A DNA stretch of 64,000 bases from Patescibacteria group bacterium (GCA_016861245.1 BOKZ01000001.1:13107-77106); one strand, 5' to 3'. Numbered from the stretch's first letter, positions 25,929 to 46,718 are shown. The notes: generated by a model from the letters alone, not told the origin. Numbers and translations: made by a program.

Positions 25929-26045
25929 TTGGCGTCGGCCTACTTTCCCGAGGGCTGTTAGCCCTGAGTATCATCGGCGCTGGCAGGCTTAACTTCTCTG
26001 TTCGAAATGGGAAGAGGTGTACCCCTGTCGCTCGAGACACCAAGA
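25929..26045 (-). rRNA. rrf: 5S ribosomal RNA
   Basis: The reverse complement reads CTTGGTGTC...CACCTCTTCCCATTTCGAACAGAGAAGTTAAGCCTGCCAGCGCCGATGATACTCAGGG...GACGCCAAG, which matches the 5S consensus helices. Confidence 0.75.
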
Positions 26046-26130
26046 TAAAAAGTTCAAACGCTTAACTTCAATTACAAATCTGATTATAACGTGCTCGGAT
26101 AGAGTGGCGAGCGAGCTCGCCGAGGTAGGT

Positions 26131-26373
26131 CTAGTAGCGCTGAGGGGTGATCGAACCCTCGGCAATACATTTCTCCGATGAGAACAGTCGCTTACAGCGA
26201 TAGACCTTGTACTGACCATCGGTGAGTGAGTGTGCAGAGATTAATGCGTCAACATGACCGCCGGCGAGTTTGATCGCATCGGCATCGTTTTTCGCGTCGA
26301 ATTCCGGGCTGTTCACCCGCTTGGATTTGTGTTGGTTGTCTGATGCTGAGCATTTCACGATATACTTCGCCAT
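26131..26373 (-). CDS. Hypothetical 80-aa protein encoded in the 23S-5S spacer
   Basis: ATG preceded by GGAGGTGAGCA. Same strand as the rRNAs. No recognisable family. Confidence 0.45.
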   Translation of the reverse strand: MAKYIVKCSASDNQHKSKRVNSPEFDAKNDADAIKLAGGHVDALISAHSLTDGQYKVYRCKRLFSSEKCIAEGSITPQRY

Positions 26374-26489
26374 TGCTCACCTCCATCCGAGAACGTTATA
26401 TTGTTGTGGTTTCCAAACCAAAGTCGAAGACAATTCAGGCGACGTTCCTTCTTTCCTGCGTAGAAATTACGCGCAGAAAAGAAGTAGTA

Positions 26490-29400
26490 ATTCATGGACC
26501 TATTAGTACACCTTCGCTCAAGCCGTTACCGGCCTTACACGTAGCGCCTATCAACCGAGTGGTCTACTCGGGGTCTCATAACGAAGATTAATCTTGGGAC
26601 CTGCTTCCCGCTTAGATGCTTTCAGCGGTTATCAGTTATGATCGTAGCTACTCGACATTGCCCTTGGCAGGACAGCCGATACACCAGAGGATCATCCGCT
26701 CCGGTCTTCTCATACTAGGAGCCGCCTCCCTCAATCTTCCACGCTTACAGCAGATTAGGACCGAACTGTCTCGCGACGTTCTGAACCCAGCTCGCGTACC
26801 CTTTTAATTGGCGAACAGCCAAACCCTTGGGACCTTCTCCAGCCCCAGGATAGGATGAGCCGACATCGAGGTGCCAAACTGCGCCGTCTCTGTGGACGAT
26901 TGGGCGCAATCAGCCTGTTATCCCCGGGGTAGCTTTTATCCGTTGAGCGCCGGCCGTCTCGTTCTGAAACCGGCTGGATCACTTACGCCTGCTTTCGCAC
27001 CTGCTCGGCTTGTAGGCCTCACAGTCAAGCTCGCTTATGGGTATACCCTATCGGTACGATTTCCACCCGTACCTAGCGAACCTTTGCACGCCTCCGTTAC
27101 CTTTTAGGAGGCGACCGCCCCAGTCAAACTACCTGCCTGACACTGTCTTAGTTGTTACCAGTTAGAACCAAAATGAAACAAGGGTGGTATTTCACTGATG
27201 ACCGAAGTCTCCCACCTATGCTACACAAGTCAAACCCTGATTCAATGTCAAGCTGTAGTAAAGCTCCACGGGGTCTTTCCGTCTTGCTGCAAGTAACCGG
27301 CATCTTCACCGGTAGTGTAATTTCACCGAGTCCCTCTTTGAGACAGTTATCAAGTCGTTATGCCATTCGTGCGGGTCGGAACTTACCCGACAAGGAATTT
27401 CGCTACCATAGAACGGTTATAGTTACCGCTGCCGTTCACTCGGGCTTAAATTCAAGCCTCACCACACCGAAGTGCGGATCAGCCCTCCTCGTAACCTACG
27501 AGCACTGGGCAGGCATCAGCCCCTATACATCCCACATTGGGTTAGCAGAGACCTAAGTTTTTGTTAAACAGTCGCTTGATATTCTTTCGCTGCGGCCCGC
27601 ATTGCTGCGGGCAGGCCATATCCCTAAGTTACGGCCGCTTTTTTGCCGAGTTCCTTAAAGAGGGTTCACTCGACCACCTGAGGCTACTCGCCTCATCCAC
27701 CTGTGTCGGTTTACGGTACGGTTACCAAACATAGTTAATTTGAGAATTTTCTCGCCAGGAAGCCAACGGACGCAAAATCCAATAATCGCGTTTCGCAGAC
27801 TATCCCGTGTCTTCTCAAGGTAGTTATTTGGTAGTCACGGAATATTAACCGTGTGTCCATCGAAGTCTTACTCCTTAGGACCGACTAACCCACAGTCGAT
27901 TGGCGTTGCTGTGGAAACCTTAGATATACGGTGACCAGGGTTTTCACCTGGTTTTCGTTACTCATGCCAACATTCGCACTTCGTATCAGTCCACGGTCGC
28001 TTACGCTCCCGCTTCACCCCAATACGAACGCTCCTCTACCACTCGTGCTATACACGCTAAATACTTAGTTGACTTGGAAAATTTTGGAAGGCCTAGGACA
28101 GGACAGTGCTCCGTCCTAGGAGTGAATGCAAAGTCAACAGAACCTTATAATGAGAGATACGGCGACTAGACACAGGAGAGCTAAAATTACTATCCATCGC
28201 TCGTGTGGGTCGCCTTTAGGTATCCACGCTCCCACCACAAGGCACATGACGAAGAGCGTTAGGAGCCCGACAAGAATAATTAATTTAAGTAGCTGTAGCC
28301 ACTGATACATTACGCACCTCACAGGCAGGTTTTCTACCTTCCAAAATTTTCCAAGTAAGTATTCAAGGTGTATAGCACGAATCCTAAAATTCGGTACCTA
28401 GCTTAAGCCCCGTTACATTTTCCGCGCAAAAAGGCCTAGAGGGTTTCTACGCAACTAAGGCTTTCGCCAAAGCGTTGTAGAGAACCGTAGAATCGACTAG
28501 TGAGCTGTTACGCTTTCTTTAAATGATGGCTGCTTCTAAGCCAACATCCTAGTTGTCTACGCCTTATCACTTCGTTTTCCACTTAGCTAGAATTTAGGGA
28601 CCTTATTTGTAGGTCTGGGCTCTTTCCCTTTTGACCATGCAGCTTAGCCCGCACAGTCTGACTCTGGATTCCTAACGACGCGTATTCGGAGTTTGATAGG
28701 TGTTGAGAACTTTCGTCCCCAATGCACCTTTCAGTGCTCTACCCCGCATCATGCGAATCCAGGCTATACCTAAATATATTTCGAGGAGAACCAGCTATCT
28801 CCGGGTTCGATTGGTATTTTACCGCTTACCACAAGTCATCCCCCATTTTTGCCACAATGGTGGGTTCGGCCCTCCCTGCTAGATTTCTCTAGAGTTCAGC
28901 CTGCTCATGGCAAGATCACCCGGTTTCGGGTCTACTTTCAGCCGCTAAAAATCGCGCTATTAACACTCGCTTTCGCTTCGCGTACGGACCAAAGGCCCTT
29001 ACACTCGCGGCAAAAAGTAACTCGTTGGCTCATTCTTCAAAAGGCACGCCGTCACACGATAAATCGTGCTCCGACTCCTTGTAAGCACACGGTTTCAGGT
29101 ACTATTTCACTCCCATACTCTGGGTACTTTTCATCTTTCCCTCACGGTACTCGTTCACTATCGGTCAGATAAAGTATTTAGCCTTCCGGCACGATCACCG
29201 GACCTTCCGACTGGATTACACGTGTCCAGTCGTACTCAGGAACAAACTCCAAGTGGAATATGCGTTTTAATGTACGGGACTTTCACCCCCTATGGTGGCC
29301 TTTTCCAAGGTCCTTCCACTAACGCAACATCACTCACTCGACATACGTCTAAGTCTGCCCTATAACCCTCCTACACCAAGTCCCGGACGCAAGCAAAAAC

Positions 29401-45065: not shown

Positions 45066-45139
45066 GGGCGATTAGCTCAGCTGGTTAGAGCGCGTCACTG
45101 ATAATGACGAGGTCACTGGTTCGAGTCCAGTATCGCCCA
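45066..45139 (+). tRNA. tRNA-Ile (anticodon GAT)
   Basis: GGGCGAT/ATCGCCC acceptor, anticodon loop CTGATAA, T-loop GGTTCGAGTCC, discriminator A. Confidence 0.85.
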
Positions 45140-45149
45140 CGAATATGCA

Positions 45150-45180
45150 ACAAAAAAGAGGCTTTAGCCTCTTTTTTGTT
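45150..45180. terminator. Bidirectional hairpin terminator between tRNA-Ile (+) and 16S (-)
   Basis: AAAAAAGAGGCTTTAGCCTCTTTTTTG palindrome with flanking A-run and T-run. Confidence 0.6.
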
Positions 45181-45270
45181 TTCAAACACTTTGCGGTTAC
45201 AAGAACGTTTTCGCTACCTATATTGGTAGCATCTCTCCGATATAGATCGGAGTCGACATCTAGATTCCTC

Positions 45271-46718
45271 TAGAAAGGAGGTGATCCATCCGCAGATTCC
45301 CCTACGGATACCTTGTTACGACTTAGCTTTCCTTACCGATCCCACCTTGGTGCCGGGTAATCCCGACGCTTCTGGTGTTACCGACTCGGCCAACTTGACG
45401 GGCGGTGTGTGCAAGGCTCGAGAACGTATTCACCGTGGCATGCTGATCCACGATTACTAGTGATTCCGGCTTCATGAGGGCGAGTTGCAGCCCTCAATCC
45501 GAACTTACCGACCTTTTCTGGGATTAGCTCCACCTTGCGGTTTGGCGACCCTTTGTAGGACGGATTGTAGCACGTGTGTTGCCCAGGGCATAAAGGCCAC
45601 GCGGATCTGACGTCATCCCCGCCTTCCTCCCTGTTACCAGGGCTGTCTCCTATGAACATACAACATAGGACGAGGGTTTCGTTCGTTCAAGGACTTAACC
45701 TCACAGCTCACGCCACGAACTGACGACGACCGTGCAGCACCTGTCTTTGGGCTCCTTGCGGCACTCTCTCGTTTCTGAGAGATTCCCAAGATGTCAAGCC
45801 CTGGATAAGGTTCCTCGGTTATTGTCGAATTAAACCACATGCTCCACCACTTGTGCGAGCCCCCGCCAATTCCTTTGAGTTTTAATCTTGCGATCGTACT
45901 TCCCAGGCGGTCAACTTGACGCGTTAGCTTCGCAACAGAGAGGGTCGACTCTCCCTATTGCTAGTTGACAGAGTTTACGGCGTGGACTACCGGGGTATCT
46001 AATCCCGTTTGCTCCCCACGCTTTCGCGTCTCAGTGTCAGGTATTGCCCAGCTAGCTGCCTTCGCCATTGGTATTCCTTCTGGTATCAACGGATTTCACC
46101 CCTACTCCAGAAATTCTGCTAGCCCCTGCAAACCTCAATTCGTACAGTTTTGCTCGCGGCCTCACCGTTAGGCGGTGAGATTTAACGACCAACTTGTACG
46201 AACACCTACACGCTCTTTACGCCCAGTAATTCCGGATAATGCTCGGGCCCTACGTATTACCGCTGCTGCTGGCACGTAGTTAGCAGGCCCTTATTCGTGG
46301 GGTACCGTCATAATCGTCCCCCATAAAAGAAGTTTACAACCCGAAGGCCTTCTTCCTCCACGCGGCGTCGCGCGGTCAGGCTTTCGCCCATTGCCGACGA
46401 TTCCCTACTGCTGCCTCCCGTAGGAGTGTGGGCCGTGTCTCAGTCCCACTGTGACTGGTCGTCCTCTCAGACCAGTTACCCGTCATAGCCTTGGTGAGCC
46501 GTTACCTCACCAACAAGCTGATAGGACGCAGGCGCCTTCCGAAGCGTAAACTTTCACCTTGCGGCATATCCGGTGTTATCTCGCCTTTCGGCGAGTTATA
46601 CCAGACTTCGGAGCAGCTTCCTACGCGTTACTCACCCGTTCGCCATGGGTCTAAACCCATTCGACTTGCATGTATTAGGCACGCCGCCAGCATTAATCCT
46701 GAGCCAGGATCAAACTCT
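45271..46718 (-). rRNA. rrs: 16S ribosomal RNA
   Basis: 5' end reverse complement AGAGTTTGATCCTGGCTCAG at 46699-46718. 3' end GGATCACCTCCTTTC (anti-SD) near 45271-45290. Internal conserved blocks include GTGCCAGCAGCCGCGGTAATAC. About 1448 nt. Confidence 0.9.

What the first reader, a model, noticed from the sequence alone, without database searches (positions are those of the whole stretch)
25929..46718. Unlinked rRNA genes: 16S separated from 23S-5S by 15.5 kb, with the usual spacer tRNAs scattered
16S (45271-46718, minus) is followed by a convergent plus-strand tRNA-Ile(GAT) (45066-45139), with a bidirectional terminator between them. tRNA-Ala(TGC), the other classic ITS tRNA, lies alone at 39581-39653 on the minus strand. 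23S-5S begins only at 29775, after about 20 protein genes (thyA, folA, fpg, murB and others). So rrs and rrl-rrf must be transcribed from separate promoters. Unlinked rRNA operons are known in a minority of lineages, often slow-growing or host-associated. The dispersed ITS tRNAs look like a fossil of an ancestral rrs-tRNAIle-tRNAAla-rrl-rrf operon.
Basis: partly seen in the sequence, partly recalled or inferred. Interest (0 to 1): 0.6.

Follow-up and report, generated by a model that had tools for sequence, protein, structure and literature searches.

The report
Split rRNA operon in CPR bacterium
The 16S gene really is separated from the 23S-5S genes by 15.5 kb of ordinary genes, but this layout is shared by a whole group of tiny-genome Patescibacteria (Berkelbacteria-like) and is already described for them, so it is a real but ordinary feature.

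Summary
Covariance models find a full 16S (45274-46725, -), a 23S (26484-29743, -) and a 5S (25927-26044, -). ARAGORN finds tRNA-Ile(GAT) (45066-45140, +) and tRNA-Ala(TGC) (39580-39653, -). The 16S-23S gap is 15,530 nt and holds 20 protein genes, 8 of them on the opposite strand.

It is not an assembly artefact. More than 10 independent SRA assemblies and 4 JGI metagenomes reproduce the joins.

The order 16S > tRNA-Ile > VTT/MurB/YkuD > tRNA-Ala > variable nucleotide-metabolism genes > Fpg > dUTPase > 23S > 5S recurs in relatives. Their 16S is 87-95% identical. One is a complete Candidatus Berkelbacteria genome (CP066697.1).

Each rRNA unit looks self-sufficient. Each has its own sigma-70-like promoter, a boxA-like element, a processing helix that brackets only its own rRNA, and an A-run/hairpin/T-run terminator. 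The 23S helix shows compensatory changes.

The convergent tRNA-Ile is a strain-level inversion. Five of six other lineages sampled have it co-oriented with 16S; L065 also has it inverted.

Unlinked rRNA genes in CPR bacteria, including class UBA1384 (Berkelbacteria), are published (Brewer 2019/2020; Lui 2021).

Side observations:
- nested tRNA-Ile genes in relatives
- strain-variable cassettes beside tRNA-Ala and in the 23S-5S spacer
- a helix-45 insertion in 23S
- a conserved terminator-like leader upstream of 23S

The parts
47101..47129 (-). Candidate 16S promoter, TTGACG-17-TACAAT, about 375 nt upstream of 16S
   Evidence: 10 of 12 consensus matches. An equivalent TTGACT-17-TAAAAT sits about 400 nt upstream of 16S in the Berkelbacteria genome locus L054. 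This is a consensus match only; the transcription start is not mapped.
47074..47087 (-). boxA-like element TGCTGCTTTAACAA in the 16S leader
   Evidence: Read from the sequence. The resemblance to E. coli rrn boxA (TGCTCTTTAACAA) is from my own knowledge, not a tool test.
47004..47025 (-). 5' arm of the helix that brackets 16S (presumed RNase III processing stem)
   Evidence: the top inverted repeat of the region, 22 nt and 91% complementary, with its partner at 45185-45206. The same bracket occurs in L044, L054 (26 nt) and L052 (49 nt). One A-T to G-C compensatory pair was read from the sequences.
45274..46725 (-). 16S rRNA gene (1452 nt)
   Evidence: 1457 bits, model positions 1-1533. The anti-SD CACCUCCUU is present at the 3' end.
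45185..45206 (-). 3' arm of the 16S-bracketing helix
45152..45177 (.). Bidirectional intrinsic terminator shared by 16S and the convergent tRNA-Ile
   Evidence: (I3: 15-nt arms, 100% complementary).
45066..45140 (+). tRNA-Ile(GAT), inverted relative to 16S in this strain
   Evidence: It is co-oriented with 16S in L044-L047, L050, L052, L054 and L066.
44967..44995 (+). Promoter-like site about 70 nt upstream of tRNA-Ile (TGGATA-17-TACAAT)
   Evidence: 9 of 12. This is weak, consensus-only evidence.
30039..44929 (.). 20 protein genes between the rRNA units, 12 on the - strand and 8 on the + strand
39580..39653 (-). tRNA-Ala(TGC), co-oriented with the rRNA genes
   Evidence: It occupies the same relative position in all relatives.
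39553..39572 (-). Terminator-like hairpin directly after tRNA-Ala
39783..39811 (-). Promoter-like site about 130 nt upstream of tRNA-Ala (TCGATA-17-TATAAT)
   Evidence: 10 of 12. Consensus-only evidence.
35136..39579 (.). Strain-variable block (ThyA, DHFR, HIT-like protein, dCMP deaminase, cytidylyltransferase, His-phosphatase) that starts right at the tRNA-Ala 3' end
   Evidence: it is replaced by DUF3644 and dCTP-deaminase genes in L039, and L041 shows the same breakpoint at the tRNA-Ala end (its contig ends before the far side); the His-phosphatase gene is absent from L044. Relatives carry other nucleotide-metabolism genes here.
29979..30008 (-). Candidate 23S-5S promoter, TTGACG-18-(TG)GACAAT
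   Evidence: The -35 TTGAC and the -10 nAnAAn are invariant or near-invariant in the five lineages aligned, and are visible in L066 and L065.
29881..29971 (-). Conserved 23S leader: TACATGKTAG-A-run-ACAAGGAGG, a variable hairpin, then a GC hairpin followed by U6-7 (terminator-like)
   Evidence: The terminal hairpin is the only consensus helix, and 3 of its 7 pairs have compensatory changes among 6 lineages. Rfam has no match. Its function is inferred, not shown.
29855..29866 (-). boxA-like element (ATGCTTAACAAC) just upstream of the 23S stem
   Evidence: (T.AACAA invariant). The boxA assignment is from my own knowledge.
29824..29852 (-). 5' arm of the helix that brackets 23S
   Evidence: 29 nt, 90%; 96.6% of cells paired across 3 lineages and 6 pairs changed on both sides; slid controls give at most 57.5% paired.
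26484..29743 (-). 23S rRNA gene, 3260 nt (about 335 nt longer than the model)
28043..28380 (-). Insertion in the loop of the helix at model positions about 1205-1226 (helix 45 region), closed by a long stem of about 49 bp; intervening-sequence-like
   Evidence: I2 and I4; about 285 unaligned nt in that loop. Smaller insertions lie at model positions about 282 (94 nt) and about 1138 (63 nt).
26408..26436 (-). 3' arm of the 23S-bracketing helix
26065..26403 (-). Strain-variable cassette in the 439-nt 23S-5S spacer, closed by 20-nt inverted repeats (26085-26104 / 26381-26400). It carries an 80-aa ORF (26131-26373) with the Shine-Dalgarno GGAGGTGA
   Evidence: L057 and L058 carry a different 416-nt cassette with a different 101-aa sense ORF. 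There are no Pfam hits.
25927..26044 (-). 5S rRNA gene
25886..25912 (.). A-run/hairpin/T-run terminator immediately after 5S (AAAAAAAGACCC-CCAT-GGGTCTTTTTT)

Best explanation
The window comes from a small-genome Patescibacteria (CPR) bacterium related to Candidatus Berkelbacteria. Its single rRNA gene set is split into two independent transcription units on the same strand.

Unit 1 is promoter > boxA-like leader > 16S > terminator. Unit 2 is promoter > conserved leader with boxA-like element > 23S > 439-nt spacer > 5S > terminator. Each large rRNA is excised from its own precursor through a leader/trailer helix that brackets only that rRNA.

The 15.5 kb between the units is an old 16S-23S spacer that was expanded in place by the insertion of ordinary genes. 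tRNA-Ile and tRNA-Ala stayed in their original order as landmarks. This architecture is ancestral to the clade.

The convergent orientation of tRNA-Ile is a recent inversion in this strain.

Shown: the genes and their positions, the independent assemblies, the conserved synteny, the conserved promoter-like and helix elements, and the covariation. Inferred: actual transcription starts, termination, RNase III cleavage, and the in-place expansion history.
For: Independent assemblies:
- L034 (SRR10579385) joins the last 226 nt of 16S to tRNA-Ile and the genes beyond.
- L039 (SRR28201750) is one contig running from tRNA-Ile to the first 202 nt of 23S.
- L044 (JGI) runs through the whole 16S and on to dUTPase.
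- GC content and GC skew show no break across the window.

Clade-wide synteny:
- Relatives with 16S identity of 95% (L050), 89.5% (L054 = CP066697.1), 88% (L052) and 87% (L066) keep the order.
- L055 and L056 show it on the 23S-5S side.

Lineage:
- MurB homologues are named Patescibacteria or Berkelbacteria.
- The source contig is 685 kb long.

Autonomy of the two units:
- Promoters.
- Helices bracketing 16S alone and 23S alone are the top inverted repeats in every lineage.
- The 23S helix is 96.6% paired, with 6 double changes.
- Terminators follow 16S and 5S.
- 8 of the 20 intervening genes are on the opposite strand.

Literature.
Against: - No transcript data exist. Promoters and terminators are consensus-level predictions, and one scan found no more promoter-like sites than shuffled sequence gave.
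- The conserved hairpin plus U-run inside the 23S leader would, taken at face value, stop transcription before 23S. Read-through or antitermination has to be assumed.
- Only 64 kb of the genome is visible, so a second, linked rRNA copy elsewhere cannot be excluded from the window alone.
- In L065, protein genes rather than 16S lie next to tRNA-Ile. The architecture is therefore not invariant in the clade.
Confidence: 0.9

Rival explanations
1. The 29.8-45.3 kb interval is a mis-join (chimeric assembly), and the rRNA genes are really adjacent.
For: Short-read contigs of this organism often end at or near the rRNA and tRNA-Ile genes. rRNA genes are classic assembly break points.
Against: The same joins are reproduced in more than 10 Logan runs and 4 JGI samples. 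L039 links tRNA-Ile to 23S in one contig. L034 links 16S to the interval. L044 traverses 16S. The same layout is present in a complete genome of a relative (L054 = CP066697.1). Composition and skew are uniform.
Confidence: 0.02
2. It is still one very long operon. This would be 'operonic with tRNAs and ORFs' in the scheme of Lui et al.: transcription from the 16S promoter reads through to 23S-5S.
For: All three rRNA genes, tRNA-Ala and 12 of the 20 genes lie on the same strand, in the canonical order.
Against: A perfect bidirectional terminator sits 100 nt after 16S. Eight genes are on the opposite strand. A second terminator-like hairpin follows tRNA-Ala. 23S has its own conserved promoter-like element. 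16S and 23S each have a private processing helix.
Confidence: 0.03
3. The genes were separated by a translocation or inversion of one rRNA gene, not by in-place growth of the spacer. The positions of tRNA-Ile and tRNA-Ala would then be coincidental or secondary.
For: Unlinked rRNA genes in other phyla are on average about 410 kb apart, which fits rearrangement. tRNA-Ile has clearly been rearranged in this strain and in L065.
Against: The canonical order and strand 16S > Ile > Ala > 23S > 5S are kept across lineages with more than 10% 16S divergence. The gene block between the two tRNAs is conserved. The 23S leader keeps the spacer-type anatomy of a boxA-like element followed by the stem. Two specific single-copy tRNAs falling in order inside 2.3% of a 685-kb genome by chance is very unlikely (rough estimate below 1e-4; this is inference).
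Confidence: 0.1
4. A second, canonical linked operon exists elsewhere in the genome, and the copies seen here are redundant or decaying.
For: Only 64 kb of a contig of about 685 kb is visible.
Against: Both genes match the full covariance models with high scores. Their promoters and processing helices are conserved with compensatory changes. Circularised CPR genomes, including a UBA1384 genome, are reported as unlinked. That CPR genomes normally carry a single rRNA copy is from my own knowledge.
Confidence: 0.05

Closest known systems
Unlinked rRNA genes of CPR/Patescibacteria (Lui et al. 2021, PMC8172020, type D 'unlinked by distance'; Brewer et al. 2019/2020, 10.1101/705046)
   Same: 16S is separated from 23S-5S by more than 2 kb, with opposite-strand genes in between. 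The organisms have small genomes. A UBA1384 (Berkelbacteria) genome is listed as unlinked, with a distance of 26,291 bp. Proteins in rRNA spacers and insertions in rRNA genes are also reported.
   Different: Those papers classify by distance and strand. In the passages I read, they do not describe the conserved order 16S > tRNA-Ile > genes > tRNA-Ala > genes > 23S, the private promoters and helices, or the strain-level variation seen here.
Unlinked 16S / 23S-5S of reduced-genome symbionts (Rickettsia, Wolbachia, Buchnera; references cited in PMC8172020)
   Same: A single rRNA copy with 16S apart from a 23S-5S unit, in host- or partner-dependent organisms with reduced genomes.
   Different: In those lineages the two units lie far apart, and the spacer tRNAs are not kept in order between them (from my own knowledge; not tested here).
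Borrelia burgdorferi rRNA region
   Same: From my own knowledge: 16S is followed by a spacer tRNA, then a few kb with ORFs. The second spacer tRNA lies near 23S, and one tRNA is on the opposite strand. It is an 'exploded spacer' with dispersed tRNA-Ala and tRNA-Ile.
   Different: The gap is about 3 kb rather than 15.5 kb, and 23S-5S is duplicated in tandem. The phylum is different. Not examined here.
Classical bacterial rrn operon (E. coli type: P1/P2, boxB-boxA-boxC, 16S, tRNA-Ile/tRNA-Ala, boxA, 23S, 5S, terminators)
   Same: The gene order is the same. A boxA-like element lies upstream of each large rRNA. Separate leader/trailer helices bracket 16S and 23S. 5S lies directly downstream of 23S, and terminators sit at the end.
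   Different: There are two transcription units instead of one. The spacer is replaced by 20 protein genes. There is a 439-nt 23S-5S spacer with an ORF cassette and a terminator-like hairpin in the 23S leader.
23S rRNA intervening sequences at helix 45 (Salmonella, Campylobacter, Leptospira)
   Same: An extra stem-loop of about 285-340 nt is inserted in the loop of the helix-45 region and closed by a long, perfect stem.
   Different: Excision and 23S fragmentation are not shown here. The insertion has no ORF and no sequence similarity was tested.

Membership tests
Unlinked rRNA genes (criterion of Brewer et al.) | More than 1500 bp between the closest edges of 16S and 23S | tested here: met
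   15,530 nt. The criterion is quoted.
Unlinked rRNA genes, type D of Lui et al. 2021 | [quoted passage not shown] | tested here: met
   All rRNA genes are on the - strand. Eight + strand genes lie in the gap.
Unlinked rRNA genes | 16S and 23S are transcribed as separate primary transcripts | not testable with these tools
   Only predictions are available: promoter-like sites, terminators and private processing helices.
Canonical linked rrn operon | 16S, spacer tRNAs, 23S and 5S contiguous in one transcription unit | tested here: not met
Canonical linked rrn operon | 23S and 5S adjacent and co-oriented | tested here: met
   The spacer is 439 nt and contains no strong terminator. However, it holds a strain-variable ORF cassette.
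Patescibacteria / Candidatus Berkelbacteria (UBA1384) lineage | Closest relatives by marker sequence and synteny are named members of the group | tested here: met
   16S is 89.5% identical to that of CP066697.1 and the gene order is conserved. The MurB of that genome is named Candidatus Berkelbacteria, and other hits are named Patescibacteria. No phylogenetic placement was made.
23S intervening sequence (helix 45 type) | Extra stem-loop inserted at helix 45 and closed by a long duplex | tested here: met
23S intervening sequence (helix 45 type) | Excision by RNase III that leaves a fragmented 23S rRNA | not testable with these tools
   This needs RNA data.

The most novel reading that the evidence does not exclude
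The former spacer may still be an active insertion and exchange zone anchored on its two tRNA genes, and such tRNA-centred events may be what pulled the operon apart.

In five related lineages, the tRNA-Ile next to 16S is interrupted in its anticodon loop by a 120-150-nt insert. The insert brings its own complete tRNA-Ile(GAT) on a covarying 13-bp stem. Older outer shells are decaying, like a Russian doll. This looks like a self-complementing, tRNA-targeting element that I did not find described.

The window's clean, inverted tRNA-Ile and the cassette swap at the tRNA-Ala 3' end would then be outcomes of the same process.

Separately, the conserved 23S leader could be an attenuator that tunes 23S-5S output now that it is uncoupled from 16S. 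It combines an orphan AAGGAGG with a terminator-like hairpin.
Probability: 0.2. Interest if true: 0.6.

Novelty: new member of a known kind. Interest (0 to 1): 0.3.

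Why it matters
For this window, little is new. It is a well-supported example of a published pattern, unlinked rRNA genes in CPR bacteria.

It is a practical reminder that 16S-ITS-23S long-amplicon methods and operon-based binning will miss this lineage.

The comparison does add a clean case. A spacer has been blown up in place to about 8-15 kb while its two tRNAs keep their order, across lineages with more than 10% 16S divergence. 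Both halves keep private promoters, boxA-like elements and processing helices. That makes this clade a good system for asking how 16S and 23S synthesis stay balanced once they are uncoupled.

Tried and rejected
- **Genome-contig scan with the dCMP-deaminase fusion protein.** The best hit was only 42% identical. Hits were spread over Streptomyces and assorted CPR, and none of the 33 loci had rRNA nearby.
- **Metagenome-contig scan with the conserved 23S-leader pattern.** It returned one 1.3-kb contig of the same species and no added diversity.
- **RNAduplex of whole leaders against trailers.** It did not discriminate (z about -2, the same as the cross-controls). It was replaced by inverted-repeat search and pair counting.
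- **Spacer ORFs of the window, L057, L055 and L056.** They show no mutual similarity and no Pfam family, so they are not a conserved gene. Among close strains, the 5 nt differences give 2 aa changes, which is uninformative.
- **Rfam at a permissive threshold.** It finds nothing in the 23S leader and nothing in the inserts of the nested tRNA-Ile: no group I intron and no ribozyme.
- **ARAGORN with introns allowed.** It calls only the inner tRNA-Ile.
- **tRNA-Ile half copies or att-like repeats of tRNA-Ala in the window.** None were found.

Full report
**What is there.** Rfam covariance models place three rRNA genes on the minus strand:
- a complete bacterial 16S at 45274-46725
- a complete 23S at 26484-29743
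- a 5S at 25927-26044

ARAGORN and Rfam agree on tRNA-Ile(GAT) at 45066-45140 on the plus strand and tRNA-Ala(TGC) at 39580-39653 on the minus strand.

The distance from the 16S 3' end to the 23S 5' end is 15,530 nt. It also finds dCMP deaminase, a cytidylyltransferase, a histidine phosphatase, a YkuD transpeptidase, an NAGPA-domain protein and a VTT-domain protein.

There are 20 genes in the gap, 12 on the rRNA strand and 8 opposite. The hairpin between tRNA-Ile and 16S is a textbook bidirectional terminator, AAAAAAGAGGC-TTTA-GCCTCTTTTTT, at 45152-45177. The only coordinate correction is that 23S starts at 29743, not 29775.

**Not an assembly artefact.** The exact MurB protein of the window is indexed in 39 blocks of the Logan collection, and contigs from 10 different SRA runs were retrieved.
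- L034 (SRR10579385) joins the last 226 nt of 16S to tRNA-Ile and the genes beyond.
- L039 (SRR28201750) is a single contig from tRNA-Ile to the first 202 nt of 23S.
- A JGI strain about 97% identical (L044) runs from trigger factor and ClpP through the whole 16S and on to dUTPase.
- GC content and GC skew are uniform across the window.

**Who it is.** MurB homologues at 49-56% identity are named Patescibacteria group, Candidatus Berkelbacteria or Saccharimonadales. The protein named Berkelbacteria is encoded on CP066697.1, a 768,650-bp complete genome. Its 16S is 89.5% identical to the window's, and its gene order around MurB is the same.

The window's own proteins occur on an NCBI contig of 685,065 bp. 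I did no phylogeny. 'Berkelbacteria-like CPR bacterium with a genome of about 0.7 Mb' is the supported level of identification.

**The layout is ancestral to the clade.** The relatives sampled were:
- L050 (GCA_964599405.1, 16S 95% identical)
- L054 (CP066697.1, 89.5%)
- L052/L053 (88%)
- L066 (87%)
- L055 and L056, which cover the 23S-5S side

All of these, and L044, show the same order: trigger factor/ClpP, 16S, tRNA-Ile, VTT(/NAGPA), MurB, YkuD, small ORFs, tRNA-Ala, a variable set of nucleotide-metabolism genes, Fpg, (dUTPase), 23S, 5S, RecO, Alr, GlyRS.

The 16S-23S distance is 13.9 kb in L050. It is under 10 kb in L055 and L066.

So the two classic spacer tRNAs sit in canonical order and strand between 16S and 23S across lineages with more than 10% 16S divergence. 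The block between the two tRNAs is conserved. The block between tRNA-Ala and Fpg is different in almost every lineage.

**How the two halves work (predicted, not measured).**

16S unit:
- a TTGACG-17-TACAAT site at 47101-47129, with an equivalent TTGACT-17-TAAAAT at the same distance in L054
- a boxA-like TGCTGCTTTAACAA at 47074-47087
- a 22-nt leader/trailer helix (47004-47025 with 45185-45206) that is the top inverted repeat of the region
- a terminator 100 nt after the gene

23S-5S unit:
- a TTGACG-18-TG-GACAAT site at 29979-30008; its -35 TTGAC and most of its -10 are invariant in the five lineages aligned and match by eye in L065 and L066
- a boxA-like ATGCTTAACAAC at 29855-29866
- a 29-nt helix (29824-29852 with 26408-26436) that brackets 23S only
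- 5S
- an A-run/hairpin/T-run terminator at 25886-25912

In every relative, the strongest inverted repeat around 16S or 23S is the equivalent bracket. For the 23S helix, 96.6% of cells pair across three lineages. Six pairs changed on both sides, and sliding the partner strand drops pairing to 57.5% or less.

This is the anatomy of the E. coli rrn leader and spacer, duplicated into two self-contained units. That comparison is from my own knowledge.

**A puzzle inside the 23S leader.** Between the promoter-like site and boxA lies a segment of about 90 nt (29881-29971). Its 5' end, TACATGKTAG-A-run-ACAAGGAGG, is almost invariant. It contains a perfect Shine-Dalgarno sequence with no start codon after it.

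The segment ends in a short GC hairpin followed by six or seven U. RNAalifold keeps only that hairpin as consensus, and 3 of its 7 pairs have compensatory changes. In single-sequence folds, the GGAGG region can pair with the 5' arm of the hairpin.

This could be a boxB-like pause or loading element, or an attenuator. I cannot tell which. Rfam has nothing here.

**The convergent tRNA-Ile is a local, recent event.** In L044-L047, L050, L052, L054 and L066, tRNA-Ile is on the same strand as 16S. It is inverted only in the window strain (and its Logan twins L034, L035 and L039) and, independently, in L065.

Between the window and L044 (about 97% identical), the 230 nt from the 16S trailer to the VTT gene are replaced by an unrelated 554 nt.

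**Comparison with the literature.** Brewer et al. define unlinked as more than 1500 bp apart. They list Patescibacteria among clades with coherent clusters of unlinked genes.

Lui et al. circularised 34 CPR genomes. They found 27 unlinked and proposed a clade-specific pattern. They noted proteins in rRNA spacers. Their table lists a UBA1384 (Berkelbacteria) genome as unlinked, with 26,291 bp between 16S and 23S.

The finding is therefore a sound example of a published pattern. The conserved in-order tRNAs and the private regulatory elements are added detail, not a new kind of system.

**Other things seen.** Details are in the noticed list:
- nested tRNA-Ile genes in relatives
- cassette exchange exactly at the tRNA-Ala 3' end
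- an exchangeable ORF cassette in the 23S-5S spacer
- a helix-45 insertion in 23S
- 16S insertions and a LAGLIDADG gene in the rRNA genes of relatives

**Verdict.** It is a real feature of known kind, with modest interest (0.3).

Noticed in passing
L044:7502-7728, L054:7408-7617, L050:1775-1992, L066:436-720, L065:1700-2000 (minus strand); also L045-L047: Nested tRNA-Ile genes sit next to 16S in relatives. The layout is a 5' half of tRNA-Ile ending ...CTGATA, then a 13-14-nt arm, a complete tRNA-Ile(GAT), the complementary arm, a small hairpin, and finally the matching 3' half (TAATGACG...). The arms covary between lineages. Joined in silico, the outer halves of L054 and L044 give perfect cloverleaves; the L054 outer copy has its own acceptor stem, with 2 compensatory pairs relative to the inner copy. 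In L050, L065 and L066 the outer shell carries further insertions in the T- or D-loop. L066 keeps the right flank of an older layer. There is no Rfam match and no BHB-like motif. The window and L052 have a simple tRNA-Ile.
   Followed up: partly
window 35136-39579 (compare L039:5503-8470, L041, L044:13306-16703): The block ThyA-DHFR-HIT-like-dCMP deaminase-cytidylyltransferase-His phosphatase is strain-variable. Divergence starts exactly at, or 4 nt after, the tRNA-Ala 3' end and ends at the ThyA start codon. In L039 it is replaced by DUF3644 plus a 372-aa dCTP deaminase that uses the same upstream region. L044 lacks the phosphatase gene. More distant relatives carry ThyX/Tmk/Ndk/DCD, PurL or a beta-lactamase-like gene here. 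No att-like repeat or integrase was seen.
   Followed up: partly
window 26065-26403 (ORF 26131-26373, minus strand); L057:230-645: The 23S-5S spacer is 439 nt long. It holds a cassette closed by a 20-nt inverted repeat, with an 80-aa sense ORF behind a strong Shine-Dalgarno (GGAGGTGAGCAATG). Strains L057 and L058 have a different 416-nt cassette with an unrelated 101-aa sense ORF at the same spot. L055 and L056 have other unrelated ORFs in their spacers. There are no Pfam hits.
   Followed up: partly
window 28043-28380 (also about 29400-29460 and about 28420-28480): 23S is 3260 nt against a 2925-position model. About 285 nt are inserted in the loop of the helix-45 region and closed by a stem of about 49 bp (28043-28091 / 28337-28380). 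This is the classic site of RNase III-excised intervening sequences. There are also 94-nt and 63-nt expansions at model positions about 282 and about 1138.
   Followed up: partly
window 29881-29971 (minus strand): There is a conserved leader of about 90 nt upstream of 23S. It has an orphan AAGGAGG with no start codon after it and a terminator-like hairpin plus U6-7. It is present in six lineages and has no Rfam family.
   Followed up: partly
L052:6550-6736 and 7990-8819; L056:9413-9991: rRNA genes of relatives carry large insertions. 16S of L052/L053 has insertions of about 187 nt and about 830 nt. 23S of L056 carries a LAGLIDADG homing-endonuclease ORF. The window's 16S has none.
   Followed up: no
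window 31404-32726: A 1.3-kb segment with a 391-aa secreted-looking ORF (31508-32683, no Pfam family) is present in the window and L038. It is absent from L034-L037 and L039.
   Followed up: no
window 46711-46754: A 21-nt hairpin (95% complementary) pairs the first 15 nt or so of mature 16S with the leader sequence immediately upstream. It is conserved in L044.
   Followed up: no
window 37249-38073 (minus strand): The 274-aa protein with a C-terminal dCMP-deaminase domain has its best full-length relatives (33-42% identity) scattered among Streptomyces and other actinomycetes and assorted CPR bacteria. This patchy distribution fits horizontal transfer of the variable block.
   Followed up: no
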